Shown here: piece by piece, positions 3,590-57,252 of the stretch
Position numbering within the stretch: the stretch's first letter is position 1
How the letters are laid out: every line of letters starts with the position of its first letter
Source of the DNA: Candidatus Uhrbacteria bacterium
GTDB lineage: Bacteria; Patescibacteriota; Patescibacteriia; UBA9934; GWF2-40-263
Assembly (NCBI GenBank): GCA_023246355.1
Contig: JAHFIQ010000002.1
Location: 24,333 to 88,332, forward strand
Direction of reading: 5' to 3'
DNA: 64,000 nucleotides
Position numbers and translations under genes: made by a program
The notes under the pieces: generated by a model
Seen by the model: the letters and a program-made list of their open reading frames with translations, nothing else
What the model was told of the DNA's origin: nothing
Database searches by the model: none

Positions 3590-4816
3590 ATGAGCATCAA
3601 AAAATTTTTGAAACGACTTGGTCCAGGGTTTATCACAGGGGCGGCTGATGATGATCCGTCTGGGATTGCGACCTATTCCCAAACCGGTGTGCAGTTTGGT
3701 TACGGTCAATTGTGGACTGCGCTTTTTTCTTTTCCTTTTATGGTAGCGGTGCAGGAGATGTGTGGGCGGATCGGGCTTGTGACCGGCAGCGGTCTTTCGA
3801 CGATCATGCGCAAACACTATCCACGTCCTGTCTTGTCTGTGTGCGTGTTGCTTTTGGTTCTTGCCAACACAATCAATATCGGAGCAGACCTTGGGGCCAT
3901 GGCGTCCGCAGCTCAGATGTTGTTTCATGTGCCTTTTGTGTTTTGGCTTTTCGCTCTGACCTTGTTCACTCTGGGACTCGAATTGTTTGTGCCCTATCCG
4001 ACGTACGCAAAATTTCTCAAGTACCTGACCCTCTCGTTGTTTGCCTACGTCGGAGTTGCTTTTCTCGTGAAGCAAGATTGGCATCTTGTCCTGACCTCCA
4101 CATTTTTTCCTTCATTCTCCTTCGACAGACCATTTCTGCTCAACATCATGGCCGTTCTTGGAACCACGATTTCTCCGTATTTGTTTTTTTGGCAGACAGA
4201 TGAAGAAGTGGAAGAAGCGATCGCGAAGGGACGGTCGCACAGCAATCGCAACGATGTAAAAGCCATGCGTGTTGATACGATGCTCGGAATGTTTTTTTCT
4301 AACCTTGTGATGTTTTTCATCATCATGACAGCCGCCTCGGTGTTAAGAGCGCAGGGGATAACACACATCGACACCGCCGCGCAGGCAGCCGAGGCTCTGC
4401 GACCTCTGGCTGGTGACTTCACGTTTTTTCTTTTTGCCTTAGGGATTCTGGGGACCGGTTTGCTGGCGGTTCCTATTCTTGCGGGGTCGGCTTCCTATGC
4501 GGTGACTGAGGCTCTCGGTTGGAAGTCTGGGCTTTCTCGCACATTCAAACAAGCACATGGCTTCTATGGCATCATCGCCGTGGCCACTCTGCTCGGTCTG
4601 CTTGTAAATTTTTTTCACGTTCCATCGTTTCAGATGCTCTACTACACGGCCGTGTTCAATGGTCTCTCAGCTCCCCCGCTGCTTCTGTTGATTCTTCTCA
4701 TCTCAAACAATAAGCAGGTGATGGGGGAACAGGTAAACGGACGACTTTCAAATATTCTTGGGGTGATCATTATTGCTGTGATGACGGGTGCCGGACTTGC
4801 AGTTTTGTTTTTTTGA
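3590..4816 (+). CDS. mntH: NRAMP family divalent metal (Mn2+/Fe2+) transporter
   Basis: MSIKKFLKRLGPGFITGAADDDPSGIATYSQTGVQFGYGQLW NRAMP signature; about 11 TM; start re-set to ATG 3590. Confidence 0.8.
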   Translation: MSIKKFLKRLGPGFITGAADDDPSGIATYSQTGVQFGYGQLWTALFSFPFMVAVQEMCGRIGLVTGSGLSTIMRKHYPRPVLSVCVLLLVLANTINIGADLGAMASAAQMLFHVPFVFWLFALTLFTLGLELFVPYPTYAKFLKYLTLSLFAYVGVAFLVKQDWHLVLTSTFFPSFSFDRPFLLNIMAVLGTTISPYLFFWQTDEEVEEAIAKGRSHSNRNDVKAMRVDTMLGMFFSNLVMFFIIMTAASVLRAQGITHIDTAAQAAEALRPLAGDFTFFLFALGILGTGLLAVPILAGSASYAVTEALGWKSGLSRTFKQAHGFYGIIAVATLLGLLVNFFHVPSFQMLYYTAVFNGLSAPPLLLLILLISNNKQVMGEQVNGRLSNILGVIIIAVMTGAGLAVLFF

Positions 4817-4820
4817 AAAT

Positions 4821-5627
4821 TTAGACGGAGAGAACAATTTCTACCGGACAATGATCAGAACCCATCACATCGGCGTGGATGGACGCGCTCACGAGATTTT
4901 TTTGAAGTGTTGAGCTGACAAAAAAATAGTCAATGCGCCAACCCACGTTTCGTTCTCGGGCTCCTTGAAACGCACTCCACCAGGTATACGCGCCGGTTTT
5001 GTCGGGAAAGAAGTGACGGAATGAATCGATAAATCCTGCGTTTACCATGTGATCTGCCCCTTCGCGTTCTTCATCCGTAAACCCAGCGTTCTTGTGATTG
5101 TCTTTGGGACGTGCCAAGTCGATTTCTTTGTGGGCCACGTTGAGGTCACCACAAAACACGACAGGCTTTGTTTTTTCTAGGTGGAGCATGTAGGTGAGGA
5201 AAGCAGGGTCCCAGATTTTGTGTCGCAGGCTTAGGCGAGCCAGATCGCGCTTGGCATTGGGTGTGTAGACCGTGACCAGAAAGAAGGAATCAAACTCCAT
5301 GGTGATCACGCGACCCTCCTCGAGAGGATTTCCAAACGCGTCTTTGAACCTTTCCTTTTTTTCCTCTGGTAGGTCGTAGACAATTCCGAGCGGTTTCACT
5401 TTGGTAAAGATTGCCGTTCCTGCGTAGCCGCTTCGATCAGCCGAGTTCCAGATTTCTTCGTACTCGGGCAAATCGATTTCTGCCTGGCCACGATTGGCTT
5501 TGGTTTCCTGCAAGCAGAGGATGTCTGGTTTGTGTGTGTGGACCAATGGCAAAAAAAGATCCTTGCGAACGACCGCACGCAGTCCGTTTACGTTCCATGA
5601 GATGAGTTTGAGATGAGAGGTTTTCAT
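4821..5627 (-). CDS. xth: Exodeoxyribonuclease III (AP endonuclease, ExoIII/APE1 family)
   Basis: LISWNVNGLRA, LCLQETK, GDLNVAH, SDHCPV motifs. Confidence 0.8.
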   Translation of the reverse strand: MKTSHLKLISWNVNGLRAVVRKDLFLPLVHTHKPDILCLQETKANRGQAEIDLPEYEEIWNSADRSGYAGTAIFTKVKPLGIVYDLPEEKKERFKDAFGNPLEEGRVITMEFDSFFLVTVYTPNAKRDLARLSLRHKIWDPAFLTYMLHLEKTKPVVFCGDLNVAHKEIDLARPKDNHKNAGFTDEEREGADHMVNAGFIDSFRHFFPDKTGAYTWWSAFQGARERNVGWRIDYFFVSSTLQKNLVSASIHADVMGSDHCPVEIVLSV

Positions 5628-5655
5628 GGATCAATGGTAGCGCATGAAGGTTGGA

Positions 5656-5684
5656 TTGACGAGAGCCCGGATCTTGCATATCAT
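5656..5684 (+). promoter_or_regulatory. Sigma70-like promoter for tRNA-Glu
   Basis: TTGACG, 17 nt spacer, TATCAT, about 20 nt upstream of the tRNA 5' end. Confidence 0.5.
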
Positions 5685-5703
5685 AGTGCCGCAACTCCCA
5701 GAA

Positions 5704-5778
5704 GGCCCCATCGTCTAATGGTTAGGACATCAGGTTTTCATCCTGGTAACGGGGGTTCAATTCCCCCTGGGGTCACCA
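5704..5778 (+). tRNA. tRNA-Glu (anticodon TTC), CCA encoded
   Basis: Acceptor stem GGCCCCA/TGGGGTC, D-arm TCTAATGGTTAGGA, anticodon loop TTTTCAT, T-arm GGGGGTTCAATTCCCCC, 3' CCA; followed by hairpin terminator 5781-5806. Confidence 0.8.
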
Positions 5779-5839
5779 CAAAATCCGCTCGAGTGTGAGC
5801 GGATTTTGTGTTAGAATTGTTGGTGAAATAAAACCGTCT

Positions 5840-6091
5840 ATGTCACTCACTGAGAAAAATTCTACAGATCAGATAAAATCACAGTTTGTCGGCTATGTGC
5901 TTGCCGCGTTCAGTTTTGTTGCGGGACTAGCATGGAACGAGGCTGTGAAAGCATTCATTGAGACACTCGTCCCAATTGGTTCAGGTGGAGTTGTCGCGAA
6001 ATTTTTGTATGCGATTATCGTCACACTCGTTTTAGCCTTCGCATCGTGGATGTTGCTCAGAAAGAAGAAATCCACGGGTTCTTTGTCCTAG
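5840..6091 (+). CDS. Small two-TM membrane protein, hypothetical
   Basis: ATG at 5840 (MSLTEKNSTDQ...); hydrophobic segments VGYVLAAFSFVAGLAW and LYAIIVTLVLAFASWMLL. Confidence 0.35.
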   Translation: MSLTEKNSTDQIKSQFVGYVLAAFSFVAGLAWNEAVKAFIETLVPIGSGGVVAKFLYAIIVTLVLAFASWMLLRKKKSTGSLS

Positions 6092-6149
6092 CATGCCTGT
6101 TTTTTCATTTTGATGTAAGTTTGTTGCAGCTCATTGTGCGAGGAGAGCC

Positions 6150-6497
6150 TTGAAACGCAAACCGCGAAAAATTTGGGTAAGCAAAGAAACGTTTTTACTG
6201 GTTGAATCTCGACAGAAGGACTTGCTTGTCCGTTCTGATGGATGGATGATTGCATTCGTGAGTGTGGGAGACGTTGTTGAAATCTGGGGGACGATTGCAA
6301 ACAAAGAGCGACGATGTTTGCGACGGGTTACGGCCTGTCGTCGGTATGAAACCATGCTCTCGATTGTTGAGCATGAAGACCTGACACGTCTTGCCCATGG
6401 CAATGAAGTGCAGACCCTTTCGTACCTCGCTCGCATCTACAGCCCTCAGCAGGAGGAATCACACGCCGTGGTTTTGGAACTGAAACCGATCACCTGA
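6150..6497 (+). CDS. Hypothetical protein
   Basis: 115-aa ORF, no motif recognised; start uncertain. Confidence 0.2.
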   Translation: MKRKPRKIWVSKETFLLVESRQKDLLVRSDGWMIAFVSVGDVVEIWGTIANKERRCLRRVTACRRYETMLSIVEHEDLTRLAHGNEVQTLSYLARIYSPQQEESHAVVLELKPIT

Positions 6498-6673
6498 AAC
6501 GAGGTGATTTTTATTTTTCGAAAAGCGTGAGAAAAGAAAGTTTACCCTTGTTGTTGGGTTATCTTAACTCAAGTGTGAACACTGAAGACCTGACCCCATA
6601 TTCGCGCAAACGAAAATACGACCCGTGAGGTCGTGGAAGAGGTTTCGAGGGGACCGGTCCCCGGAGGGTGGCG

Positions 6674-7219
6674 TCAAGCAGGAATGAGTTGGAGTCGTTG
6701 AGCACGGCGGCGGACGAGGTCTGTTTCGGTTCCGAACCTTTCCGCAACATCCACGAGGATCCCGTGTTGTTCATCGAAGGCAAGGCGAAACTGCGGTCCA
6801 GGGACGAGCAGAACGCCTGCGAAGGTGCAGGCCTCGCGATCCACCGCGTCGTCCATGTGCCAGGGAACCATCATTCCATTCCCTTTGGACACGAGCGGGA
6901 AGTGGAGGAAGTAGAATCCGACTCCGCGGGCCACGAGGAATCGATGTCGGCTAGTGAACTCGTCGGACGACACCGTGAGATCAAAGTCGCCTGCTGACCG
7001 GACGATGAGCGCCGTCGTGGGGGTGGGCGCCGTGTACACGTGTCCGCCTAGGAGGCGAACGAATTCCTCGAGGTTACCATCAGGTGGTAGTTTGGCGTCT
7101 CTAGCTACGCGCTCCGCGAGCTCCTCGATGTTTTCGGGTGCGAAGTTGCACGGTTTGGGGACCGAGAAGAGGGCTGGTGTGGACATGGATACTCCGATCG
7201 CGACTGGATCGTAACACAC
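6674..7219 (-). CDS. Hypothetical protein, high-G+C island gene
   Basis: 181-aa ORF in markedly G+C-rich segment; palindrome GGGGACCGGTCCCC just downstream. Confidence 0.4.
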   Translation of the reverse strand: MCYDPVAIGVSMSTPALFSVPKPCNFAPENIEELAERVARDAKLPPDGNLEEFVRLLGGHVYTAPTPTTALIVRSAGDFDLTVSSDEFTSRHRFLVARGVGFYFLHFPLVSKGNGMMVPWHMDDAVDREACTFAGVLLVPGPQFRLAFDEQHGILVDVAERFGTETDLVRRRAQRLQLIPA

Positions 7220-7406
7220 GAGTCCTGAAAAGCAAACCAGAATGAAGGGAAGGCAGTCTCTGTAAAAGCTAAGCCGTAGCTGGTGTCAAAAATAAATCTC
7301 TTCGTTAAGACGGACAGAGTCACGAATCGTTTGTGGTCTCGCAACTTGTCTCTTTTTTGTTGACTCCATTTCTCTGATCCGATACGGTTTCCATGAAGGA
7401 GCCTCC

Positions 7407-7721
7407 ATGATCACCCTCCTGCTCTTGGCCCTGCTTGCTTGCAGCCCACCTCCACCTCCTCCCAAGGTCGCATCTCCACTTCCTGAGGAAGTGGTAAACA
7501 CCATCACCATCAAGGTGCCGGCCGATTGCCCGCATCTCATCGTGGATGTGACCTCGGACGAGACAACAGATGTGACCGCCGCCTGCTTTGTGAACAACGA
7601 GCGTACCTACTTTGCGCATGAAGAAGCTCCGCTTTTCTGCACCGCGGACGATCCTTCTGTTGAGGAGTTCGTGAAGCTCGAGTACATCCAAGACCTTCCG
7701 TATCTCTCCTCCGTCCATTAG
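7407..7721 (+). CDS. Small lipoprotein, Pro-rich after lipobox (LLACSPPPPPPK)
   Basis: Signal peptide MITLLLLALLAC with lipobox; G+C-rich. Confidence 0.45.
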   Translation: MITLLLLALLACSPPPPPPKVASPLPEEVVNTITIKVPADCPHLIVDVTSDETTDVTAACFVNNERTYFAHEEAPLFCTADDPSVEEFVKLEYIQDLPYLSSVH

Positions 7722-7778
7722 CTGGGCGGAGTTTTCTGTGAAAAAGAAAACCGCCCGAGCAGGACGGTCGTAGGAAAC

Positions 7779-8294
7779 CTATCGTGGGAACACAGGGAGT
7801 GTGATCGTCACATCGAGAGGTTCGTGTTCTTGAAGTGAGCCGTGTTCGTAGAAGTAGCGTTGTTGGTGCAGAGGCATCTGAGGGTTGAGCTCGTAATTGC
7901 GTAGCACCGGGAACAGCCACCGTTCGTCTGCTGGCCACATCTCACTTCTGGGAAGGCGCATGAGGCTGTAGGCCTGTGGATCCGTCATGCCCTCGTCAGG
8001 ATAGGCTCGAGGGATTCCGTGAAACGACCCCATGAACCAGTACATCCGTCGGTTTCTGTCGGGCCCATCGCGATGGATATTTTCCACAACCGCGAGCAGG
8101 ATGGTCTCTTCAAGGATCGGCGACAGACCGCTTTCCTCTTCTGCCTCACGACATGCGGCTCCAAACAGCGACGTGTCGCTTCTCTCGAGCCTTCCTCCCA
8201 CAGGCACACGTCTCTCCACGCCGTCTTGAGAGAGCTTCTTCCACAGGACGTATCGATCTTTGCGTCTTGGGAGAAACAAGCAGGTGATGATCAT
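7779..8294 (-). CDS. NUDIX hydrolase
   Basis: Nudix box GGRLERSDTSLFGAACREAEEESGL (Gx5Ex7REuxEExGu). Confidence 0.65.
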   Translation of the reverse strand: MIITCLFLPRRKDRYVLWKKLSQDGVERRVPVGGRLERSDTSLFGAACREAEEESGLSPILEETILLAVVENIHRDGPDRNRRMYWFMGSFHGIPRAYPDEGMTDPQAYSLMRLPRSEMWPADERWLFPVLRNYELNPQMPLHQQRYFYEHGSLQEHEPLDVTITLPVFPR

Positions 8295-8429
8295 GGTCCT
8301 CCCATACGGAAAAAGAGAGAGATACAGAGGGCGAGCGCAAAGACGGCGGAGCAGGGTTTATCCTGTGTGAAGATGAGAATTCTGTCAATCATTGACCAAT
8401 CTTTTAGAATAACGTACTCTTCTGCCGTT

Positions 8430-10253
8430 ATGATTCGAGACGATTTACGCAATATCGCCATCATCGCCCACGTCGACCACGGCAAAACCACGCTGGTCGA
8501 TGCGCTTTTGAAACAGTCACACACATTTCGAGAGGGCCAATCCATGGGAACCACTATCATGGACTCAAACGAACTCGAACGAGAGCGCGGTATTACGATT
8601 TTTGCAAAGAACGCGGCCATCGAGTGGAAGGGAAAAAAGATCAACATCGTGGACACGCCTGGTCACGCGGATTTTGGCGGTGAGGTAGAACGCATCATGA
8701 ACTTGGTCAATGGCTGTTTGCTCTTGGTGGATGCCAAGGAAGGTCCCATGCCGCAGACAAAGTTTGTACTCAAGAAAGCTCTTGAGGCTGGACATAAGGT
8801 GATTTTGGTCGTGAACAAGATCGACAAAAAAGATGCGCGACCAGCCTGGGTCCTGAACAAGACGTTTGATTTATTTATCGATCTGGGAGCCACCGATGAA
8901 CAAGCGCATTTTCCCGTGCTCTACGCCTCTGCCATTAATGGGATTGCCGGGACTGAGCCTGAGATCGAAAAGATGAAAGACATCTCTCCCATTTTGGATG
9001 CGGTCGTTGAGCATTTGAGTGGACCCTCCGGTGACGTGAATGCCCCCATGCAAATGTCGATCGTGAATATTTTTTACGATAACTACAAAGGCCGTATTGC
9101 CGTTGGCCGTGTGATCAACGGCGTGGTGAAACAGGGCGCACAGGTGAAACATATCAATCGTGATGGAAAAGAATCGATCGCTAAAATTACCGCGCTTCAA
9201 ATCTACGATGGTCTCGGACGAAAAGAAGTTGAATCCGCTTCAGCCGGCGAGATTGTCGCGCTCTCGGGAATGGAGCATGTGCAGATCGGTGAGTGTTTGG
9301 TGGATCCCGTGAACGGCGTCGCGCTCCCCGTGATGTCGGTGGAAGAGCCCACGGTCAAAATGACCTTTGGCGCCAACACGTCTCCCTTTGCCGGAAACGA
9401 AGGAGAGTTTTCGACCGCTCGACATCTGAAGGAGCGTCTTGAGCGAGAGCTCTTGAATGACGTGGCTCTGCGTGTGGAAAAGGGCGATGGTGATTCACAG
9501 TTTGTCGTCTCAGGTCGAGGCGAACTTCACTTGGCGATTTTGATTGAGAAGATGCGACGTGAAGGATATGAATTACAGGTGTCTCGTCCGCAAGTGATTT
9601 TCAAAGAAAAAGATGGTGTGACCATGGAACCGTTTGAGGCGGTGTCCATTGAGTGTCCGGAAGCCTTCTCGGGCATTGTCATTGAAAAAATGGGAAAGCG
9701 CCGTGGAGAGATGAAAGACATGCTCGTTGAAAACGGGACATCGTTTCTCGAGTTTGAGATTCCAACGCGTGGACTGATCGGCTATCGCAATGAGTTTTTG
9801 ACGGACACCAAGGGACAGGGGATCATCAATACGCTTCTGCTGGGCTACCGCGAAAAGGCGGGTGAGATCACGGCAGGGGGGCATGGCGCGATGATTTCCA
9901 TGGAGCAAGGTACGACGATGGGCTATTCGCTCACCAACTTGCAAGAGCGTGGGTCATTGTTTCTGGGTCCGGGCGTGGAAGTCTATGCGGGCATGGTGAT
10001 TGGCGAGAACTCGCGCAATGAAGACATGGAAGTCAATCCTTGCAAAGAAAAGAAATTGTCCAATATGCGTTCCAAGGGAGATGGTGCATCGGTCATCTTG
10101 GAAACGCCACGCGACATGACCCTTGAGATGAATCTCGAATTTCTCTCCGACGATGAACTGTTGGAGGTCACCCCAAAATCGATGCGTATCAGAAAAATGA
10201 TTCTCGACGCCGGAGCGCGCAAACGTGCTGGGTCGCGAAGTGTGAGTGAGTAA
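8430..10253 (+). CDS. typA: Translational GTPase TypA/BipA
   Basis: NIAIIAHVDHGKTTLVD, DTPGHADF, NKIDK G-domain plus EF-G-like domains; start re-set to ATG 8430 (the ORF track N-extension from 8019 overlaps the upstream minus-strand gene). Confidence 0.85.
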   Translation: MIRDDLRNIAIIAHVDHGKTTLVDALLKQSHTFREGQSMGTTIMDSNELERERGITIFAKNAAIEWKGKKINIVDTPGHADFGGEVERIMNLVNGCLLLVDAKEGPMPQTKFVLKKALEAGHKVILVVNKIDKKDARPAWVLNKTFDLFIDLGATDEQAHFPVLYASAINGIAGTEPEIEKMKDISPILDAVVEHLSGPSGDVNAPMQMSIVNIFYDNYKGRIAVGRVINGVVKQGAQVKHINRDGKESIAKITALQIYDGLGRKEVESASAGEIVALSGMEHVQIGECLVDPVNGVALPVMSVEEPTVKMTFGANTSPFAGNEGEFSTARHLKERLERELLNDVALRVEKGDGDSQFVVSGRGELHLAILIEKMRREGYELQVSRPQVIFKEKDGVTMEPFEAVSIECPEAFSGIVIEKMGKRRGEMKDMLVENGTSFLEFEIPTRGLIGYRNEFLTDTKGQGIINTLLLGYREKAGEITAGGHGAMISMEQGTTMGYSLTNLQERGSLFLGPGVEVYAGMVIGENSRNEDMEVNPCKEKKLSNMRSKGDGASVILETPRDMTLEMNLEFLSDDELLEVTPKSMRIRKMILDAGARKRAGSRSVSE

Positions 10254-10260
10254 ATAAAAT

Positions 10261-10319
10261 CCCGTCAGGATCCTCCTGGCGGGTTTTTGTATGTTAAAAC
10301 CTGCCAGTGAGTGGCAGGT
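10261..10319. terminator. Back-to-back terminator hairpins: typA (+) and the high-GC operon (-)
   Basis: cccgtcaggatcctcctggcgggttttt, then acctgccagtgagtggcaggt followed by T-tract on the minus strand. Confidence 0.55.
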
Positions 10320-10328
10320 CGAGATGAG

Positions 10329-10913
10329 CTAGTCGGACGTGAGTTCCGACATCGCGCGGTGCTTGATCATGGCGATACTCGCGTTGGCTCCATCCGGGAA
10401 GGAAGCGATGAGGGTGCTCACGATCGCGAAGTGCTCCGGAACAGAGGTCGTGATGCTTCTGAGATCACCTGAGAGAGTACCCTCAGGCTGGTAGTGCGAC
10501 CTCCCATGGGTGTCGAGCCGGAGGCCGAAGACCTCCAGGACGAGCCGTCCGTTCGCGAAGAGATCGAGGGCTGCAGGGAAGTGAACCATTCCATCGTTGC
10601 GGGACAGCGTTTCCAGACGCTGGTCCGCGATCTTGAGGGCGAAGGTGTTTGCGTCTTCGAATCCTGGACGAAGTTGAGGTGCACCCACCAGCATGGCCAA
10701 GAGGGGAAGCCCGGCGGCATTGGCGCGATCTAGCAGTGCGGGGTCGGCGAAGGCCGTGCAGGCCATGCTTTGGCCATCGACGAACGCCCAACCCCCATTA
10801 CCCCCCAGAGTAGCTTGGATGTTTTGCTCATCGATTGGAATGTCGGTTGCCTGTGAGAGCCCAGTGCACAGCTCCAGGAACGTGCGGCGATGAGAGGCTT
10901 TTGCACGAGACAT
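10329..10913 (-). CDS. Secreted protein with twin-arginine-like signal (SHRRTFLEL...SQA), hypothetical
   Basis: ATG at 10913 preceded by AAGGAG RBS; RR-x-FL motif in the N-terminus. The ORF track N-extension to 11135 overlaps the upstream gene. Confidence 0.45.
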   Translation of the reverse strand: MSRAKASHRRTFLELCTGLSQATDIPIDEQNIQATLGGNGGWAFVDGQSMACTAFADPALLDRANAAGLPLLAMLVGAPQLRPGFEDANTFALKIADQRLETLSRNDGMVHFPAALDLFANGRLVLEVFGLRLDTHGRSHYQPEGTLSGDLRSITTSVPEHFAIVSTLIASFPDGANASIAMIKHRAMSELTSD

Positions 10914-10935: not shown

Positions 10936-11316
10936 TCAGGCCTCGCGGCCGTGTTTGATCGCGTCGATTTCGTCCATATCTTCCATTCGGTGGTCGACCC
11001 ACTGTCGAAACCCGAGACTCCCCGGCGGAAGACGTAGGGCTGATTCGGCATCCCGTGGCGGATCCGGCCAACGGTCACCGCTGTACCACTGAGAAGCCTT
11101 GATGTGCTTGAAGGCTCGACGTTGGAGACTCTCAATGTGGGTCATGAGAGCCACGAATTTGGGATTGTCCTGGCGGATGTCGATGACGGGGACTCCATCG
11201 ATGGTGTCAGGCCCTAAGCGTCGGCTTGAGAGAATGCCGATCAGTTGGAGAAGACTCACGCTGTCAACGGAGTCTTGCTCAAGCTGTGCGATCAGCGCGG
11301 CGTCACGATCGTCCAT
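10936..11316 (-). CDS. Hypothetical acidic protein
   Basis: 126-aa ORF tightly packed between neighbours; G+C-rich. Confidence 0.4.
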   Translation of the reverse strand: MDDRDAALIAQLEQDSVDSVSLLQLIGILSSRRLGPDTIDGVPVIDIRQDNPKFVALMTHIESLQRRAFKHIKASQWYSGDRWPDPPRDAESALRLPPGSLGFRQWVDHRMEDMDEIDAIKHGREA

Positions 11317-15624: not shown

Positions 15625-16356
15625 TTGTCCAGTCCTCTCCCCTACAGAACTCGTCATGAGTTTGTGATGGCGTTTATGGCAAACGTAGCCATGACGTCCG
15701 CGACGGCCGTGACCGGTCAGCAGCGGGGCAGGCACGGACAGCGTCCGGGCAAGCCCATGGCTGGAAGGTCGGGCGACGACCTGGCCGTGTACGCCTACTT
15801 CAACATGCGTTCCGTGGCCAGCATGATCGCGAGCATCTGCACCAACAAGGTTCGTCGCAGGAAGAAGCGCAAGCTCTCTACCTGGACGGTGAGCCGATTC
15901 GTGTCCCAAGCGATCCACCTCATCCACGCCGGGTTGAATCCCGAGCTCAAGGCACCTCGAACCCACGAAACAGCCGGTGGGTATGGGTGTTCAGCGGCTG
16001 ATGTCGAAAGACGTTGGCGTGAGTTCATGGATGAGCTTCAGAAGAAGATCGATGTGGATGATCCCACAGAGTTGTGCGCCTGGGTGGAATACCAAGTGCG
16101 CTTCGATATCCATCCGTTCGCGGATGGAACCGGTCGTCTCGCCACAGCCCTCTGTGCCTGGATCATGCTTCGCAGCAAGCGGGCGATTCCCAGCTACGCC
16201 TTTTGGCAGCGCTCCTCGATGCACGAGAAACTCCGTGAAGGGTTCCCGGCGTTTCGTGAGTACTACTTGAAGGCCTGCTTCGAGGAAGCACAGGAGGCAA
16301 CCGCTTCCACGCACCCTCCTAGGGCAGCGGCGCGTGCGCAGGTGGCCGCTGCCTGA
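15625..16356 (+). CDS. Fic/Doc family protein with divergent motif HPFADGTGR and a polybasic stretch
   Basis: FDIHPFADGTGRLATAL matches the Fic motif HPFx[DE]GNGR with N to T and without the second Arg; KVRRRKKRKL basic cluster; G+C-rich. Confidence 0.6.
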   Translation: MSSPLPYRTRHEFVMAFMANVAMTSATAVTGQQRGRHGQRPGKPMAGRSGDDLAVYAYFNMRSVASMIASICTNKVRRRKKRKLSTWTVSRFVSQAIHLIHAGLNPELKAPRTHETAGGYGCSAADVERRWREFMDELQKKIDVDDPTELCAWVEYQVRFDIHPFADGTGRLATALCAWIMLRSKRAIPSYAFWQRSSMHEKLREGFPAFREYYLKACFEEAQEATASTHPPRAAARAQVAAA

Positions 16357-16423
16357 CTCTCGGGTTGATGATTCATCGACCCGTTTTCTTTTTGAGAGAA
16401 AACTTGTAGGCTACCCTCCGACT

Positions 16424-17500
16424 ATGCGTATCCTCGGCATCGAAACCAGTTGTGATGAAACGGCACTTGCGGTTATGAGCGAACAAGACGGTCGTTTTGT
16501 TGTTGAGCAAAACATCTTGGCTTCCCAGGCGAAGACGCATGCAAAATATGGCGGTGTGGTTCCAGAGGTTGCTGCACGTGAACATGCGGCTTTGTTATTT
16601 CCGCTGTTGCATCAAATGGATCTCGCGCCAGACGGAAAAGATGTTGACGCAATCGCGGTGACCTCAGGTCCTGGATTGGTTCCGGCATTGCGTATCGGCG
16701 TGGAGTTGGCAAAGACTCTGTCGTGGGTTTGGAAGAAACCGTTGGTTGCTGTCAATCACCTCGAGGGACATCTTTATTCTGTGTGGCTTGATACTGCTCC
16801 AGCGTTTCCTGCCCTCTGTCTTCTCGTCTCTGGTGGTCATACCGAGCTGATCCTCATGCATGGTCACGGACACTATGAGTTCCTTGGTATGACACGTGAT
16901 GATGCGGCAGGGGAGGCGTTTGATAAAGTCGCCAAGCTCTTAGGACTTCCCTATCCTGGTGGACCAGAAATTTCCAAAGCCGCCACAACAGGGAATCCTT
17001 GTGCCATCGATTTTCCTCGTCCCATGATCGACTCAGGCGATTTGGATTTTAGTTTCGCGGGTTTGAAGACAGCGGTGAGAGTGTATCTTGCGAGTTCTCC
17101 TCCCCTTGCTAAGGGGAGGCCGGGAGGGGTCGAGGACGGAAGGCCGGGAGGGGTCGAAGACGTAGCAGCGAGTTTTCAACAAGCCGTGGTCGACACGCTT
17201 GTGAGTAAGACTCTGCAGGCTGTACACAAGACCAAGCCGCGCAGTGTGATTCTTTCAGGCGGGGTTTCGGCCAATCGTCTTTTACGAGAGACACTCAGGG
17301 ATAATCTCCACGCCTATTCAACCGAGATCTCATTCCATGCACCCGATCTTTCTCTCACCGGCGACAACGCGGTGATGATCGCCCTTGCGGGATTGTTCAA
17401 AGCCAAGCGCGGGGAATTTTGTGATCCACTGACCCTGGTTGCAGATCCGAATTTGCGATTAGGTAGCCCCGGGCTTCAGCCCGGGTGCAGCCCAGGCTAA
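16424..17500 (+). CDS. tsaD: tRNA N6-adenosine threonylcarbamoyltransferase TsaD (Kae1/Qri7 family)
   Basis: MRILGIETSCDETALAV, VNHLEGHLYS, LVSGGHTELI; carries an in-frame repeat insertion (PPLAKGRPGGVEDGRPGGVED). Confidence 0.85.
   Translation: MRILGIETSCDETALAVMSEQDGRFVVEQNILASQAKTHAKYGGVVPEVAAREHAALLFPLLHQMDLAPDGKDVDAIAVTSGPGLVPALRIGVELAKTLSWVWKKPLVAVNHLEGHLYSVWLDTAPAFPALCLLVSGGHTELILMHGHGHYEFLGMTRDDAAGEAFDKVAKLLGLPYPGGPEISKAATTGNPCAIDFPRPMIDSGDLDFSFAGLKTAVRVYLASSPPLAKGRPGGVEDGRPGGVEDVAASFQQAVVDTLVSKTLQAVHKTKPRSVILSGGVSANRLLRETLRDNLHAYSTEISFHAPDLSLTGDNAVMIALAGLFKAKRGEFCDPLTLVADPNLRLGSPGLQPGCSPG
17096..17162. repeat. Short palindromic repeat element copy (with internal tandem duplication), in-frame inside tsaD
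   Basis: tcctccccttgctaaggggaggccgggaggggtcgaggac followed by ggaaggccgggaggggtcgaagac; near-identical to 27298-27342. Confidence 0.6.
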
Positions 17501-28951: not shown

Positions 28952-29032
28952 AGACAGACATTTTAGGGCTTCTCTCTTATTTAGGCGAGTTTCTAAAAAG
29001 AAAATCCCCTTGCCAGATGGCAGGGGGGTCGG

Positions 29033-47285: not shown

Positions 47286-48038
47286 TTACGCGCCCTGAAG
47301 GTTAGCACTTGAAGAGCCCTGTGTCAAAACCCGTGAAAGAAGCTCAGGAACGAGTATGAGGGGAATGGCGCCATGGGTCATAAAGGCTTCAAGGGCTGGG
47401 AGCGTGTGGGCTTCTTGAATCGAAAACGGACCAATCGATGTACGACGAAGTTGCTCAACATATCCACCGCCACCGAGCGCCTGGCCCAGGTCTCGAGCCA
47501 GGGACCGAATGTAGGTGCCGGAGGAGCAAGTAATTTTTGCCTCTAGTTTTACCGTTGGGCCAATAGGTCCAAGAGGTCTTATTTCGAATGTATGAATGTT
47601 GACCAATCGCGCTTTCGCTTCCATGGGTTTCCCTTTACGTGCTTCCTCATACATTTTCTTTCCGCCAATTTTTATGGCTGAATAGGTCGGCGGGATCTGT
47701 GAAATTTCGCCGATGAATTGAGATAAGACCCCCTCCAACTCCCCCTTGGCAAGGGGGAGTGGCTTCGTTGGAGCCGGAGTGATGACTCCTGTCCGATCAT
47801 CCGTGTCTGAGGTTGCTCCCAATACAAACACAGCCTCGTAAGTTTTATCGAGTCCAACCAGTTTTTGCATTTCCCTCGTTGCGTTTCGTCCAACGCCCAC
47901 GATCAGCAACCCTGTGGCAAACGGATCCAGTGTTCCCGCATGTCCCACACGTTTTTCTCCTGTCAGATGTCGTACCCGATCAACAACATCGTGGCTCGTG
48001 AGACCGGCTGGTTTGTCGATGAAAAGGAAGCCTTCCAT
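47286..48038 (-). CDS. truB: tRNA pseudouridine(55) synthase TruB
   Basis: GHAGTLDPFATGLL catalytic Asp motif, PPTYSAIKIGGKK. Confidence 0.85.
   Translation of the reverse strand: MEGFLFIDKPAGLTSHDVVDRVRHLTGEKRVGHAGTLDPFATGLLIVGVGRNATREMQKLVGLDKTYEAVFVLGATSDTDDRTGVITPAPTKPLPLAKGELEGVLSQFIGEISQIPPTYSAIKIGGKKMYEEARKGKPMEAKARLVNIHTFEIRPLGPIGPTVKLEAKITCSSGTYIRSLARDLGQALGGGGYVEQLRRTSIGPFSIQEAHTLPALEAFMTHGAIPLILVPELLSRVLTQGSSSANLQGA
47749..47769. repeat. Perfect palindrome ctcccccttggcaagggggag inside truB, related to the tsaD/rpsA element core
   Basis: Encodes PLPLAKGEL in truB, versus PPLAKGRPG from the element in tsaD. Confidence 0.4.
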
Positions 48039-54855: not shown

Positions 54856-57252
54856 ATGTCTTACAACCATCAACACATTGAGAAGAAGTGGCAACAGCGG
54901 TGGGAAGCGGCCAAGATTTTTCAGGCGAAAGATTCTGGCGGGAAAAAATTTTATTGTCTGATCGAATTTCCCTATCCGTCAGGGGCAGGACTGCACATCG
55001 GCCATCCACGAAGCTACACCGCGCTAGATGTGATGGCTCGAAAGCGACGGATGCAGGGAATGAACGTGCTCTATCCCATCGGGTGGGACGCGTTTGGATT
55101 GCCGACCGAAAATTATGCGATCAAAACAGGTCGCAAACCACAGGAGGTGACGATCGAGAACATTGCCACGTTCAAGCGGCAGCTACAGTCGCTGGGTCTT
55201 TCATTTGATTGGTCGCGTGAGGTGAACACGACCGACTCTGCGTACTACAAATGGACGCAGTGGATGTTTTTGCAATTTTTTAAAGCCGGTCTTGCGTACA
55301 AAGCGAAGCAACCGATCAACTGGTGTCTCTCGTGCAAGATCGGATTAGCGAATGAAGAAGTCGTGAACGGAAAATGCGAGCGCTGTGGAGGAGATACGGA
55401 GAAGCGTGAGAAAGAGCAATGGATGATCGCCATTACCAAGTATGCGGATCGGTTGCTTGAGGACCTTGATACGGTCGACTATCTTGAGAAGATTAAAACG
55501 CAACAGCGGAATTGGATCGGCAAGAGTGAAGGAGTGGAGATTGGATTTGAAGTTCCCCTCCTTGCCAAGGAGGGGTCAGGGGAGGTCTTAAAGATTTTCA
55601 CGACCCGTGCTGATACGATTTTTGGCGCGACGTTTTTAGTAATCTCGCCGGAGCTCGCGAAAAAGTGGATCGATGTAGGATGGCACGCATCAGATACGGT
55701 ACGGAACTATGTCCAGGAATCCCTTGGTCGTGCTGAAATGGATCGCACCAATGCTGAACGAGAAAAGACGGGTGTGGATACCGGGGTTCTGGCAATCAAT
55801 CCTGCCAATCAAAAAGAAATTCCGATCTGGGTCGCCGATTATGTTCTCGGAAATTATGGCACAGGAGCCATCATGGCCGTGCCACAGCACGATGAACGTG
55901 ATCGAGCCTTCGCCATGAAGTTTGGTTTGCCGATCGTGGACGAGCCGCTTGTCCCAGTCGATGAAGTGATCAAAAAGGTCGGTGGGAAAAAGACGGTGAA
56001 GTATAAACTGCGCGACTGGGTTTTCTCTCGTCAGCGTTACTGGGGTGAGCCCATTCCATTGGTCTGGTGTGAGGAGCACACATGGGTTGCGGTTCCAGAC
56101 GCGCAGCTCCCTGTTGTTCTCCCTGACGTCGACAAGTACGAACCGACCGATTCAGGAGAATCTCCACTGGCGTCGATTGGAAGTTTTGTGAACACGACCT
56201 GTCCAACCTGTGGCGGTCCAGCCAAACGTGAGACAGACACCATGCCAAACTGGGCAGGATCCAGCTGGTACTTTCTGCGTTACATTGATCCAAAGAACGA
56301 CAGGGCCTTTGCTGATCCTGACAAGCTGAAACACTGGATGCCGGTTGATCTCTACAATGGTGGTAATGAGCATACTACGCTCCATCTGCTCTACTCCCGT
56401 TTCTGGAACAAGTTTTTGTTTGATCAAGGACATGTGCCAACCTCTGAACCGTATGCAAGACGCCATAGTCATGGACTCGTTTTGGCAAGCGACGGGACCA
56501 AGATGAGTAAGTCAAAAGGCAACGTCGTGAATCCGGACGAGATTGTTTCCGAGTACGGAGCTGATGCGCTGCGCATGTACATTTTGTTCATGGGACCGTT
56601 TGAAGAGCCTGTCCCGTGGAGTCTGAACGGTCTTATTGGCGTGCGACGGTTTTTGGATAGAGTCGTGAGATACGTTGAGGGGTGGAAGGAACAGTATGTT
56701 AAACACTCCGAGGAGCATGATGAACTGGTCGCTCCTTATCTGGAAAAGGTGAGTACGGATATCGAAGCCTTTAAGTTTAACACAGCGGTCTCTTCGTTCA
56801 TGAGTCTTTTTAAAGAATTAACAGCAGAGGTAGTCGATAGGCAAAATCCAGAGGTATTCATTCCTCCCTATGTGAGTGATTCCATGATGAAAAAGATTCT
56901 TATTTCGCTCTGCCCGTTTGCACCCCATGTGGCGAATGAATGCTGGGAAATGATCGGTGAAAAAGGTTTTGTTGAAGAACAGCCATGGCCAGAGTTGAGT
57001 AGGTCTCTTCTTGTTCGAGAGAGCGTTGAGATAGGCGTCCAGATTAGCGGAAAGACTCGAGGTACTATTCATCTTTCACCAAACGCCACCCAACAGGAAG
57101 CAATTGAAATTCTCAACTTAGGGAGACCCATTAATACCCCAACAGCTCACATTGGTACTGAACACTCGAATATTTGGAAGCACCTCGATGGTAAGACGAT
57201 CGTGAAAATTATTTATGTTCCAGGGAGGATTCTCAATATTGTGGTGAAATAG
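54856..57252 (+). CDS. leuS: Leucyl-tRNA synthetase
   Basis: PYPSGAGLHIGHPRSY (HIGH) and KMSKSKGN. Confidence 0.9.
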   Translation: MSYNHQHIEKKWQQRWEAAKIFQAKDSGGKKFYCLIEFPYPSGAGLHIGHPRSYTALDVMARKRRMQGMNVLYPIGWDAFGLPTENYAIKTGRKPQEVTIENIATFKRQLQSLGLSFDWSREVNTTDSAYYKWTQWMFLQFFKAGLAYKAKQPINWCLSCKIGLANEEVVNGKCERCGGDTEKREKEQWMIAITKYADRLLEDLDTVDYLEKIKTQQRNWIGKSEGVEIGFEVPLLAKEGSGEVLKIFTTRADTIFGATFLVISPELAKKWIDVGWHASDTVRNYVQESLGRAEMDRTNAEREKTGVDTGVLAINPANQKEIPIWVADYVLGNYGTGAIMAVPQHDERDRAFAMKFGLPIVDEPLVPVDEVIKKVGGKKTVKYKLRDWVFSRQRYWGEPIPLVWCEEHTWVAVPDAQLPVVLPDVDKYEPTDSGESPLASIGSFVNTTCPTCGGPAKRETDTMPNWAGSSWYFLRYIDPKNDRAFADPDKLKHWMPVDLYNGGNEHTTLHLLYSRFWNKFLFDQGHVPTSEPYARRHSHGLVLASDGTKMSKSKGNVVNPDEIVSEYGADALRMYILFMGPFEEPVPWSLNGLIGVRRFLDRVVRYVEGWKEQYVKHSEEHDELVAPYLEKVSTDIEAFKFNTAVSSFMSLFKELTAEVVDRQNPEVFIPPYVSDSMMKKILISLCPFAPHVANECWEMIGEKGFVEEQPWPELSRSLLVRESVEIGVQISGKTRGTIHLSPNATQQEAIEILNLGRPINTPTAHIGTEHSNIWKHLDGKTIVKIIYVPGRILNIVVK

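What the first reader, a model, noticed from the sequence alone, without database searches (positions are those of the whole stretch)
17096..17162. A short palindromic repeat element inserted in-frame into tsaD, with a second copy in the rpsA 5' UTR and a related palindrome inside truB
The sequence tcctccccttgctaaggggaggccgggaggggtcgaggac lies inside tsaD. A tandem duplicate of its 3' half, ggaaggccgggaggggtcgaagac, follows it. The same sequence recurs at 27298-27342 (tcctccccttactaaggggaggtcgggaggggtcgtaggga) in the rpsA leader. The core is a perfect hairpin, ctcccctt-R-ctaaggggag. In tsaD the copy is translated in-frame as ...SSPPLAKGRPGGVEDGRPGGVED..., lengthening a surface loop by roughly 14-20 residues relative to typical TsaD proteins. 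A very similar perfect palindrome, ctcccccttggcaagggggag (47749-47769), lies inside truB and encodes PLPLAKGEL. A weaker relative, tccccttgccagatggcaggggggtcgg (about 28993-29020), sits after the orphan P-loop gene. This looks like a REP/MITE-like miniature element that is tolerated inside essential coding sequences.
Basis: seen in the sequence. Interest (0 to 1): 0.6.

Follow-up and report, generated by a model that had tools for sequence, protein, structure and literature searches.

The report
Triplex-forming mini-repeat inside essential genes
A 36-42 bp dispersed repeat in a Patescibacteria (Uhrbacteria-like) genome has the sequence pattern expected of a three-stranded DNA fold, like the E. 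coli BoxC/PIT repeats, but here it sits translated inside tsaD, truB and leuS, and its nucleotides are conserved far more strongly than the genes around it.

Summary
The "weak relative" near 29,000 is a terminator-like hairpin and not a family member.

Each copy has a 9-nt pyrimidine arm, a 3-nt loop, a 9-nt purine arm, a 3-nt loop and a G-rich tail. The tail is the mirror image of the purine arm. In 123 independent copies retrieved by hairpin alone, the tail follows the purine-motif triplex code: G faces G in 500 of 502 cases, and A or T faces A in 92 of 95. This is the class II intrastrand triplex architecture described for E. coli BoxC/PIT/TMECO, in a different sequence family and phylum. 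It is intragenic here, whereas TMECO is always intergenic.

Ortholog alignments show lineage-specific, recurrent insertion at the same loops. The rpsA leader gives a filled-versus-empty site comparison. Structured codons barely change between orthologous copies (8 of 9 versus 15 of 120, p = 2.6e-6). One T:A:A triplet became C:G:G in all three strands in the closest relative.

This is a new variant of a known kind. How it spreads is unknown.

The parts
17091..17098 (+). 5' extension CGAGTTCT of the A/B subfamily
   Evidence: The same octamer (CGAGTYCT) precedes copy B (27293-27300) and an independent copy in locus L271. It can also pair with the tail in an alternative Watson-Crick fold.
17099..17131 (+). 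Copy A in tsaD, sense strand. Y arm CCTCCCCTT (17099-17107), loop GCT, R arm AAGGGGAGG (17111-17119), loop CCG, third strand GGAGGGGTC (17123-17131). Encodes PPLAKGRPGGV.
   Evidence: Lies in a coil between two helices of the AlphaFold2 model, with pLDDT below 50 at residues 261-267. Absent from most orthologs.
17138..17161 (+). In-frame 24-nt tandem duplicate of 17114-17137. It adds a second third strand, GGAGGGGTC, at 17147-17155 and encodes GRPGGVED.
   Evidence: Tandem Repeats Finder: period 24, 95% matches. A remnant, GGAGGGATC, is present in the closest relative L320, so the duplication predates their split.
27293..27333 (+). Copy B in the rpsA 5' leader, antisense to rpsA. Sequence: CGAGTCCT, CCTCCCCTT, ACT, AAGGGGAGG, TCG, GGAGGGGTC.
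   Evidence: It appears as a 34-37 nt insertion relative to the intact leaders of L190 and L192. L194 has a different palindromic insert at the same point (alignment A2). A promoter-like site lies upstream at 27400-27372 on the - strand.
27727..27727 (.). Placeholder only; no feature at this coordinate. See copy C below.
   Evidence: Not applicable.
47727..47759 (-). Copy C in truB, sense strand. Sequence: CTCCCCCTT, GCC, AAGGGGGAG, TTG, GAGGGGGTC. Encodes LPLAKGELEGV.
   Evidence: (I4). Orthologous copies in L196, L197 and L199 keep the structured nucleotides, while both loops and the flanks diverge.
55555..55587 (+). Copy D in leuS, sense strand. Sequence: CCCCTCCTT, GCC, AAGGAGGGG, TCA, GGGGAGGTC. 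Encodes PLLAKEGSGEV.
   Evidence: (I4). Absent from LeuRS of L198 and L199 and from most homologs. The closest relatives carry PLLFKEGLGV. It is 5 residues longer than T. thermophilus LeuRS 1h3n.
29003..29031 (-). Not part of the family. Hairpin CCCCCCTGCCA-TC-TGGCAAGGGG followed by ATTTTCTTTTT, which resembles a terminator.
   Evidence: It has no homopurine arm and no mirror tail.

Best explanation
**What it is.** The element is a short (34-42 bp) dispersed repeat defined by structure. On one strand it reads: 9-nt pyrimidine arm, 3-nt loop, complementary 9-nt purine arm, 3-nt loop, then a G/A/T strand that mirrors the purine arm. As single-stranded DNA such a sequence can fold into a hairpin. 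The 3' strand can then lie antiparallel in the major groove of that hairpin, forming G.G-C, A.A-T and T.A-T triplets. This is a class II purine-motif intrastrand triplex, the architecture shown in vitro for the E. coli BoxC/PIT/TMECO repeats.

**Shown here.**
- The family has colonised a Patescibacteria (Uhrbacteria-like) genome, repeatedly and in a lineage-specific way.
- It lands or survives at sites that tolerate it: surface loops of TsaD and LeuRS, a linker and helix start in TruB, and the tip of a hairpin in the rpsA leader.
- Coding copies are read through as Pro/Gly-rich peptides of the form P-[PL]-L-x-K-[GE]-x-x-[GE]-[GE]-V.
- The three structured strands are held nearly constant, or change together, while the loops and flanks drift.

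**Inferred.**
- What is preserved is the folded single-stranded DNA form, exposed during replication, repair or transcription, rather than the peptide or an RNA.
- The element spreads, or is re-templated, by a copy or conversion process that acts on that form. No element-encoded enzyme is involved.
- The fold promotes local slippage, which would explain the 24-nt in-frame duplication in tsaD.
- The copies are most likely tolerated genomic passengers, not host adaptations.
For: **Architecture and triplex code.**
- All four window copies have 9/3/9/3/9 geometry. The position of the single A in the tail tracks the position of the A in the purine arm.
- I retrieved 123 non-redundant hairpins from viral contigs using the hairpin alone. 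The tail identifies the stem type uniquely and correctly in 82 cases, wrongly in 4, and ties in 8; 19 have no tail.
- With the register fixed by G.G matches only, the base opposite an internal A is T 48, A 44, C 2, G 1. Among copies scoring at least 8 of 9 triplets, the base opposite G is G in 500 of 502 cases.
- 71% of hairpins score at least 8 of 9 triplets, against 28% when tails are swapped between stem types.
- A hairpin-only metagenome scan gives 88 of 130 with GG[T/A]GGGGT tails.

**Match to the known class.** Holder et al. 2015 (PMC4666352) give the same architecture and triplet code for BoxC/PIT/TMECO. They showed a stable triplex for the single strand by CD and NMR.

**Insertion.**
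- TsaD: most orthologs have an 8-residue loop.
- rpsA leader: filled and empty sites with conserved flanks.
- LeuRS.

**Recurrent hits at one site.** The TsaD loop carries an A-type copy (window, L192), an all-G copy (L320), a C-type copy (L321) and a further variant (L322), each with a matching tail. truB carries C-type sense copies and, in L198, a D-type antisense copy.

**Nucleotide-level constraint.**
- In truB, 8 of 9 structured codons are identical in four lineages, against 15 of 120 elsewhere (Fisher p = 2.6e-6). Pairwise synonymous difference is 0.52-0.65 in the flanks and 0-1 of 9 in the element. Both loop codons vary.
- In tsaD, window versus L192 gives 0 of 8 in the element against 0.58 in the flanks.
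- In L320 (82% amino-acid identity), the T:A:A triplet is C:G:G in all three strands. A leftover second tail, GGAGGGATC, keeps the old A.

**Not an assembly artefact.** The identical TsaD protein is on record from 8 contigs in three sources.

**No mobilising gene nearby.** No transposase, RAYT or integrase is encoded in the window.
Against: - No triplex was measured here. ViennaRNA cannot model triplexes, and the hairpins alone give only modest z-scores of -0.5 to -2.1.
- For E. coli TMECO, in vivo DMS footprinting found no stable triplex, and the double-stranded form stayed duplex.
- Strong conservation in orthologous copies would also fit a host function. It would equally fit repeated independent insertion of a conserved master copy at a hotspot, or gene conversion between copies. 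I could not separate these possibilities.
- In truB, and relative to its closest leuS relatives, the element occupies a segment of the same length as the native sequence. A simple insertion model does not predict this.
- The copying mechanism is entirely unknown, and no target-site duplication was seen.
- Only 64 kb of the source genome and about 150 kb of relatives were examined.
Confidence: 0.65

Rival explanations
1. The triplex or hairpin fold is a cis-acting DNA signal that benefits the host. It might be a programmed replication or transcription pause, a recombination or repair hotspot, or a binding site for a nucleoid or single-stranded-DNA protein. Purifying selection would keep it in place.
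For: Structured nucleotides are conserved in truB orthologs at 66-74% amino-acid identity, where synonymous sites are near saturation. One triplet changed compensatorily in all three strands at the tsaD site. In all 3 coding copies of the window, the G-rich strand is the non-template strand. Holder et al. link TMECO to local genome instability.
Against: Close relatives lack the element at the same sites: the rpsA leaders of L190 and L192, tsaD of L190, and leuS of L198 and L199. Unrelated palindromic elements occupy the same sites in other lineages. There is no consistent position relative to gene starts or ends. Antisense copies exist (L198, L271).
Confidence: 0.15
2. The selected unit is an RNA hairpin in the mRNA, acting on stability, translational pausing or leader regulation. 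The tail is incidental.
For: All coding copies are transcribed. Copy B sits at the tip of a hairpin in the rpsA leader that is conserved in position but variable in sequence. The 9-bp stem would be stable as RNA.
Against: The tail covaries with the stem under a rule (G opposite G; A or T opposite A, in equal numbers) that is not Watson-Crick pairing. The rule also rules out a pyrimidine-motif RNA triplex on the complementary strand. That triplex would need a T on the complementary strand facing each A of the purine arm, so this strand could carry only A at those positions. Instead T is as common as A, and TT faces the terminal AA. According to Holder et al., citing earlier work, purine-motif triplexes do not form in RNA. 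Copies occur in both orientations relative to transcription.
Confidence: 0.08
3. The G-rich half folds into a G-quadruplex rather than a triplex.
For: The purine arm plus tail contain four G runs, for example GGGG-A-GG-CC-GGG-A-GGGG in copy A.
Against: A quadruplex does not need the complementary pyrimidine arm. It also does not need mirror-symmetric placement of A/T in the tail. Both features are conserved.
Confidence: 0.05
4. The repeated unit is a peptide module (PLxKGxxGGV) selected at the protein level.
For: Three of three coding copies in the window are in the same frame. Similar peptides recur in many TsaD and TruB homologs.
Against: Copy B is non-coding. Other copies are translated antisense or in other frames and give different peptides: TPPNLPFVRGGELV in L271, HPFPLLQKEGE in L198, and PSPYEGEG in TsaD homologs. 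Synonymous sites are conserved while the loop residues vary. The TsaD segment is predicted to be disordered.
Confidence: 0.03

Closest known systems
BoxC / PIT (potential intrastrand triplex) / TMECO repeats of E. coli and other Proteobacteria (Hoyne et al. 2000, as cited in Holder et al. 2015; Holder et al. 2015, PMC4666352)
   Same: Same class II order on one strand: pyrimidine arm, purine arm, reverse-Hoogsteen strand. Same geometry: 9-nt stems, first loop 3-6 nt, second loop 3 nt. Same triplet code: G.G-C and A or T.A-T. Both are short, dispersed and multi-copy, with no associated transposase, and both are linked to local sequence instability. Here that instability is a 24-nt tandem duplication.
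   Different: The sequence family differs: CCYCYCCTT...AAGGRGRGG...GGRGRGGTC against CCCTCNCCC...GGGNGAGGG...GGGNGAGGG. The phylum differs: Patescibacteria against Proteobacteria. TMECO is reported as always intergenic in E. coli MG1655, whereas 3 of 4 copies here are translated inside essential genes. I found no report, in the papers searched, of conservation and compensatory change inside coding sequence for TMECO.
Rickettsia palindromic elements (RPEs; summarised in PMC10969869)
   Same: Palindromic repeats inserted in frame into unrelated housekeeping genes. They are translated and appear compatible with protein fold and function.
   Different: RPEs are about 150 bp, encode a conserved peptide of tens of residues, and are not homopurine/homopyrimidine triplex motifs. 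The present element is 34-42 bp (11-14 codons). There is no sequence similarity.
REP / REPIN elements and their RAYT transposases (PMC3116915)
   Same: Short palindromic dispersed repeats that probably act as folded single-stranded DNA.
   Different: REPs are extragenic and depend on a RAYT gene. Here the copies are mostly intragenic. No RAYT was found in the window, although the rest of the genome was not examined. The defining third strand has no REP counterpart.
Small dispersed repeats (SDR) of cyanobacteria (Elhai et al. 2008, Genome Res 18:1484; recalled from memory, paper not held)
   Same: Very small (21-27 nt) apparently mobile repeats with no known transposase. As I recall, they are often found within hairpin-forming contexts and show presence/absence between orthologous regions.
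   Different: The sequences differ, and no triplex architecture was described as far as I recall. I could not check this here.
H-DNA mirror repeats
   Same: Homopurine/homopyrimidine mirror symmetry and purine-motif triplets.
   Different: H-DNA forms from a duplex mirror repeat under supercoiling and leaves one strand unpaired. Here one strand carries all three segments, with an inverted repeat plus a mirror repeat.

Membership tests
Class II purine-motif intrastrand triplex motif (BoxC/PIT/TMECO structural class) | Strand order 5' pyrimidine arm, purine arm, reverse-Hoogsteen strand 3', all on one strand | tested here: met
   All four window copies and the related copies.
Class II purine-motif intrastrand triplex motif (BoxC/PIT/TMECO structural class) | 9-nt stems, first loop 3-6 nt, second loop about 3 nt | tested here: met
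   Window copies are 9/3/9/3/9. In the wider sample the second loop is 2-5 nt.
Class II purine-motif intrastrand triplex motif (BoxC/PIT/TMECO structural class) | Third-strand code G.G-C and A.A-T or T.A-T, antiparallel to the purine arm | tested here: met
   Opposite G: G in 500 of 502. Opposite internal A: T 48, A 44, C 2, G 1. The tail predicts the stem type.
Class II purine-motif intrastrand triplex motif (BoxC/PIT/TMECO structural class) | The single strand actually folds into a triplex (CD, NMR, melting) | not testable with these tools
   Shown for TMECO by Holder et al.. No triplex energy model is available here.
TMECO/BoxC sequence family proper | Consensus CCCTCNCCC N3-6 GGGNGAGGG N3 GGGNGAGGG | tested here: not met
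   Window copies read CCYCYCCTT N3 AAGGRGRGG N3 GGRGRGGTC (consensus).
TMECO/BoxC sequence family proper | Intergenic location | tested here: not met
   Three of four copies lie inside tsaD, truB and leuS. TMECO is "always located intergenically".
MITE | Terminal inverted repeats related to an insertion sequence, plus a target-site duplication | tested here: not met
   The filled/empty comparison at the rpsA leader shows no duplication. The ends are not inverted repeats of each other in copies C and D.
REP/REPIN | Extragenic location | tested here: not met
   Mostly intragenic.
REP/REPIN | Associated RAYT (IS200/IS605-like TnpA) gene in the genome | tested here: inconclusive
   None among about 50 ORFs of the 64-kb window. 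The rest of the genome was not available.
Rickettsia palindromic elements | Palindromic unit of about 100-150 bp encoding a conserved peptide, inserted in frame | tested here: not met
   In-frame insertion is shared, but the unit is 34-42 bp with a different architecture.
Rfam RNA families | Match to a curated covariance model | tested here: not met
   Only three tRNAs reach the gathering score in the window.

The most novel reading that the evidence does not exclude
Intrastrand purine-motif DNA triplexes are selected in vivo. On this reading, the family is a structure-defined, self-propagating or re-templated DNA element with no transposase, terminal repeats or target duplication. Its folded single-stranded form would be recognised by an as yet unknown replication- or repair-coupled activity. 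That recognition would be strong enough to hold 27 nucleotides constant, and to drive three-way compensatory changes, inside essential genes across Patescibacteria. If so, this would be the first comparative-genomic evidence that such triplexes matter in cells, after two decades of negative in vivo assays on BoxC/PIT.
Probability: 0.3. Interest if true: 0.8.

Novelty: new variant of a known kind. Interest (0 to 1): 0.62.

Why it matters
BoxC/PIT/TMECO repeats have been known since the 1990s. They fold into triplexes in vitro. However, no function has been assigned to them and stable triplex formation was not detected in vivo, and in E. coli they are strictly intergenic.

In this window the same architecture sits inside essential coding sequences, which supplies a built-in evolutionary assay. 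Synonymous sites and loop codons drift, while the three structured strands stay fixed or change together. Covariation of this kind is how RNA structures are validated, applied here to a three-stranded DNA fold. It makes the question "do intrastrand triplexes matter in cells?" testable by comparative genomics.

The finding also has three practical consequences:
- It shows that reduced Patescibacteria genomes tolerate, and repeatedly acquire, such elements in proteins like TsaD, TruB and LeuRS.
- It explains a class of odd Pro/Gly-rich loop insertions in their proteomes.
- It warns annotators and phylogeneticists that these segments are not homologous protein sequence.

Tried and rejected
- **Genome-contig scan.** It gave no close relatives. 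It did serve as a background sample: about 7 BoxC-like motifs in 1.23 Mb of diverse bacteria, and none of the CCTT/AAGG type.
- **Frame preference.** All three coding copies in the window share one orientation and frame. A crude ORF-based call on viral contigs shows every frame and both orientations. Relatives also have antisense and other-frame copies. The bias is therefore not a family rule, and with n = 3 it is not significant.
- **Tail as the 3' half of a longer palindrome.** Folding copies A and B gives an alternative in which the 5' extension pairs with the tail. Copies C and D and most other copies have no such complementarity. I rejected this as the general explanation.
- **Pyrimidine-motif or RNA triplex on the complementary strand.** Rejected because T and A are equally frequent opposite A, and TT lies opposite the terminal AA.
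- **Rfam.** No family matches the element.
- **Pfam scan of about 50 ORFs.** No transposase, RAYT or integrase.
- **Literature.** I found nothing on such elements in Patescibacteria or on in-frame triplex motifs. The Elhai et al. 2008 paper on small dispersed repeats is not held and could not be checked.
- **Microhomology at insertion sites.** The empty rpsA site contains TGGGAGGG, which resembles the element's tail. I noted it, but with one site it is anecdotal.
Full report
**1. What is in the window**

It lies in frame in an ORF that NCBIfam identifies as TsaD (TIGR03723, E = 1e-113), and it is translated as SSPPLAKGRPGGVEDGRPGGVED. Tandem Repeats Finder confirms the 24-nt duplication: period 24, 1.9 copies, 95% matches.

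A second copy, 93% identical over 42 nt, lies at 27293-27334 (D10). This is 26-66 nt upstream of the ATG of a ribosomal protein S1 gene on the - strand.

A scan for perfect pyrimidine/purine hairpins found exactly four such elements in 64 kb:

| Copy | Coordinates | Strand | Location | Peptide |
|---|---|---|---|---|
| A | 17099-17131 | + | tsaD, sense | PPLAKGRPGGV |
| B | 27301-27333 | + | rpsA 5' leader, antisense | non-coding |
| C | 47759-47727 | - | truB, sense | LPLAKGELEGV |
| D | 55555-55587 | + | leuS, sense | PLLAKEGSGEV |

Shuffled sequence gives no matches to the core pattern or to a structural scan.

The "weaker relative" at about 29,000 is a hairpin followed by a T-run on the - strand. 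It has no homopurine arm and no tail, so it is terminator-like and not a family member.

**2. Anatomy: the tail mirrors the purine arm**

| Copy | Pyrimidine arm | Loop 1 | Purine arm | Loop 2 | Tail |
|---|---|---|---|---|---|
| A | CCTCCCCTT | GCT | AAGGGGAGG | CCG | GGAGGGGTC |
| B | CCTCCCCTT | ACT | AAGGGGAGG | TCG | GGAGGGGTC |
| C | CTCCCCCTT | GCC | AAGGGGGAG | TTG | GAGGGGGTC |
| D | CCCCTCCTT | GCC | AAGGAGGGG | TCA | GGGGAGGTC |

The three stem variants differ by compensatory changes in the two arms. In each variant the single A of the tail moves in step, so that the tail is the reverse of the purine arm, not its complement, about a fixed centre. No Watson-Crick process produces a mirror repeat. 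A mirror of a purine arm placed 3' of a hairpin is the design of a class II purine-motif intrastrand triplex.

**3. Testing the triplex code on independent copies**

I scanned the viral contig collection with a pattern that specifies only the hairpin. This returned 109 loci, and with the window they gave 137 hairpins, so the tails were not selected by the search.

- 71% of hairpins have at least 8 of 9 permitted triplets in one orientation. The figure is 28% when tails are swapped between elements of different stem type.
- After removing duplicates and the window's own four copies (123 left), 113 fall into the four main stem types. The tail picks the correct one uniquely in 82, a wrong one in 4, and ties in 8; 19 have no tail.
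- With the register fixed by G.G matches alone, the base opposite an internal A is T 48, A 44, C 2, G 1. Among copies scoring at least 8 of 9 triplets, the base opposite G is G in 500 of 502. The terminal AA of the purine arm is mostly faced by TT.
- A hairpin-only scan of metagenome contigs for the A/B stem gave 88 of 130 with GG[T/A]GGGGT tails.

This is the purine-motif code (G.G-C, A.A-T, T.A-T). It excludes ordinary base pairing. It also excludes a pyrimidine-motif triplex on the complementary strand. That triplex would need a T on the complementary strand facing each A of the purine arm, so this strand could carry only A at those positions.

**4. What is known**

Holder et al. 2015 (PMC4666352) describe this architecture for the E. 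coli repeat first called BoxC, then PIT (Hoyne et al. 2000), then TMECO.

- The geometry is a 9-nt C-rich stem, a 3-6 nt loop, a 9-nt G-rich stem, a 3-nt loop and a 9-nt G-rich reverse-Hoogsteen strand.
- The consensus is CCCTCNCCC N3-6 GGGNGAGGG N3 GGGNGAGGG.
- They counted 3610 copies in 262 proteobacterial genomes.
- The single strand forms a stable triplex by CD and NMR.
- No stable triplex was detected in vivo, and earlier work found no promoter or terminator activity.
- In E. coli MG1655 it is "always located intergenically" and is not linked to transposons.
- It is associated with local sequence variability.
- They also state that purine-motif triplexes do not form in RNA.

The present element shares the architecture but not the sequence, the phylum or the intergenic habit. 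Searches for such elements in Patescibacteria, or for in-frame triplex motifs, found nothing. The best-known in-frame palindromic insertions are the Rickettsia palindromic elements of about 150 bp (PMC10969869). No Rfam family matches.

**5. Host and insertion evidence**

The closest homologs of TsaD and TruB are annotated Candidatus Uhrbacteria or Patescibacteria.

*TsaD.* In an alignment of 120 homologs, most have 8 residues between LKTAVRVYL and DVAASFQQAV. About 20 lineages carry extra, element-like peptides there, such as SPLSKGELRGV, PLPKGGLRGV and PFQGGARGG. Some carry an unrelated palindromic element encoding CHCEEG...RDCFACARNDK. Relative to T. maritima TsaD (6nak), the window protein has a 14-residue insertion. 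In an AlphaFold2 model the segment is a coil between helices 242-254 and 274-300, with pLDDT below 50 at residues 261-267.

*LeuRS.* Most homologs have a 4-5 residue turn between the strands ending AEVDF and starting VFTTRPDT. The window has PLLAKEGSGEV, its closest relatives have PLLFKEGLGV, and other lineages carry an unrelated palindromic element at the same point. The window protein is 5 residues longer here than T. thermophilus LeuRS 1h3n.

*rpsA leader.* Three syntenic relatives were fetched. Two of them, L190 and L192, have intact, conserved flanks and lack a 34-37 nt block that is exactly copy B. The third, L194, has a different palindromic insert at the same position. The point of insertion is the tip of a short hairpin whose stem differs between lineages by compensatory changes: TCCCA/TGGGA, TACGA/TCGTA, TCCCCC/GGGGGA. 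L321 has a longer hairpin there. No target-site duplication is visible.

*truB.* The element does not lengthen the protein appreciably. LPLAKGELEGV occupies the place of a native segment such as LTQERVQEAI, and adds 2 residues relative to M. tuberculosis TruB 1sgv. Similarly, the LeuRS loops of L198 and L199 have the same length as the window's. Part of what looks like insertion is therefore replacement.

**6. Recurrent hits and constraint**

DNA of relatives shows four stem variants in the same TsaD loop, each with a matching tail:

| Locus | Variant in the TsaD loop |
|---|---|
| window, L192 | A-type |
| L320 | all-G: CCCCCCCT / AGGGGGGG / GGGGGGGT |
| L321 | C-type, identical in its structured parts to the window's truB copy |
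| L322 | TCCCCCCTT / AAGGGGGAA / AGGGGGGTT |

truB carries C-type sense copies in four lineages. L198 has a D-type antisense copy at the same place, and L197 has a second, antisense copy.

In the four C-type truB copies, 8 of 9 structured codons are identical in all four lineages. Only 15 of 120 other codons with identical amino acids are. This gives Fisher p = 2.6e-6. Pairwise synonymous difference is 0.52-0.65 in the flanks and 0-1 of 9 in the element. Both loop codons vary: GCC, GCT, TCC, GCA in loop 1, and TTG, CTG, CTG, TTA in loop 2. For tsaD, window versus L192 gives 0 of 8 in the element against 0.58 in the flanks.

The most telling case is L320, the closest relative at 82% identity. 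The window's T:A:A triplet (CCT / AGG / GGA) is C:G:G in all three strands (CCC / GGG / GGG). A leftover second tail, GGAGGGATC, still carries the old A. This remnant corresponds to the window's duplicated tail, so the 24-nt duplication predates the split. The change is either three coordinated substitutions or a short conversion tract from an all-G copy. Either way, the three-stranded compatibility was kept.

**7. How it most likely works**

*Shown.* The sequence obeys the purine-motif triplex code. It is gained and lost between close lineages, and it recurs at tolerant sites. Its structured nucleotides are under a nucleotide-level constraint that loops and flanks escape.

*Inferred.* The constraint acts on the folded G-rich single strand of DNA, which is exposed at replication forks, during repair or in the transcription bubble. 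In all three coding copies of the window, the G-rich strand is the non-template strand. The family is probably propagated or re-templated by a copy or conversion process that recognises or depends on that fold. The fold probably promotes slippage, which would account for the in-frame 24-nt duplication and fits the instability reported for TMECO.

Coding copies survive where the read-through peptide, rich in Pro, Gly and charged residues, can sit in a loop. No transposase, RAYT or integrase is encoded among about 50 ORFs of the window. The rest of the genome was not available.

*Rivals.*
- A host-beneficial DNA signal fits the conservation but not the presence/absence pattern.
- An RNA hairpin function does not explain the tail code.
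- A G-quadruplex explains neither the pyrimidine arm nor the mirror symmetry.
- A peptide module is contradicted by the non-coding copy, by the antisense and other-frame copies, and by conserved synonymous sites.

**8. Limits**

- No triplex was measured or modelled here. As plain hairpins, the folding z-scores are modest.
- I cannot distinguish an ancient insertion under constraint from repeated insertion of a conserved master copy, or from gene conversion between copies.
- The same-frame, same-orientation pattern of the three coding copies is not significant and is not general.
- The single genome-contig scan was wasted on a universal pattern. The taxonomic breadth of this particular sequence family therefore rests on unannotated viral and metagenome contigs.

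**9. Verdict**

The element is a new variant of the known BoxC/PIT/TMECO class of intrastrand triplex motifs. It belongs to a different sequence family, occurs in Patescibacteria, and is translated inside tsaD, truB and leuS. The comparative evidence indicates that the three-stranded pairing scheme itself is being preserved.

Noticed in passing
Homologs P0085 and P0103 (TsaD); P0283 and P0290 (LeuRS); L194 about 2650-2720 (tsaD); L194 about 11120-11170 (rpsA leader): At least two other, unrelated palindromic mini-elements occupy exactly the same protein loops and the same rpsA-leader position in other Patescibacteria lineages. Their peptides are RLCHCEEG..RDCFACARNDKN, ASEAKQSS..IASVAGLPRND and FARLRRASVGQAGAKK. 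These sites are general hotspots for palindromic insertions.
   Followed up: partly
window 27270-27400 (- strand): The rpsA leader is strongly conserved among relatives. It has a promoter-like TTGCCA-17-TACACT, then CATTATTCTTAAC, then a hairpin whose stem changes by compensatory substitutions between lineages and whose tip is where the inserts sit. This may be a regulatory leader for S1.
   Followed up: partly
L104 (viral contig), about 4000-10600: Ten all-G copies (CCCCCCCTT CGC AAGGGGGGG .. GGGGGGGTC) lie in about 7 kb. Three are spaced exactly 198 nt apart inside one ORF, and each reads LPPFARGGQGGSG. The element is embedded in a tandemly repeated protein segment.
   Followed up: no
L206, L237, L245, L278, L283, L288, L294, L299, L309 (metagenome contigs): A different repeat family shares the same 9-bp hairpin but has no mirror tail: CGGGCG(A/T)AAAAA(A/T)G CCTCCCCTT GTG AAGGGGAGG TGCCGAGCGGAGCGAGGCGGAG.
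   Followed up: no
L271 1265-1345: Two elements of different stem type lie back to back in opposite orientations. Both are translated inside a 413-aa ORF on the - strand (not identified by any family search) as TPPNLPFVRGGELVSFPPYQGGIEGG. The A-type copy keeps the CGAGTTCT 5' extension seen in window copies A and B.
   Followed up: partly
window 58949-60463 and 60447-61346 (+): A ComEC-like competence protein (Competence and DUF4131 domains, then a metallo-beta-lactamase domain) is split into two overlapping ORFs. This could be a frameshift or a genuine split. A PilB-like T2SSE ATPase lies at 21471-23210.
   Followed up: no
window 26124-26183: A 9-nt periodic repeat (CCACCTNTT-like, 4 units) lies at the 3' end of rpsA on the - strand, giving a low-complexity C-terminal tail on S1. 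A related 33-mer lies at 45501-45533.
   Followed up: no
window 27447-27830 (-): A VapC/PIN-like toxin ORF lies directly upstream of rpsA (weak NCBIfam match, E = 1.5e-5).
   Followed up: no
window 16334-16423: The tsaD ORF as listed starts at a GTG 30 codons upstream of the conserved Met (16424). AlphaFold2 gives pLDDT below 50 for residues 1-27, so the real start is probably 16424.
   Followed up: partly
L138, L139, L146, L158, L175 (diverse bacterial genomes): BoxC/TMECO-like triplex motifs (for example CCTCTCCCC..GGGGAGAGG..GGTGAGGGG) occur near tsaD loci of Rokubacteria, Pyrinomonadaceae, Anaerolineales, Atribacteria and Chloroflexia. The structural class therefore extends well beyond Proteobacteria and Cyanobacteria.
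   Followed up: no
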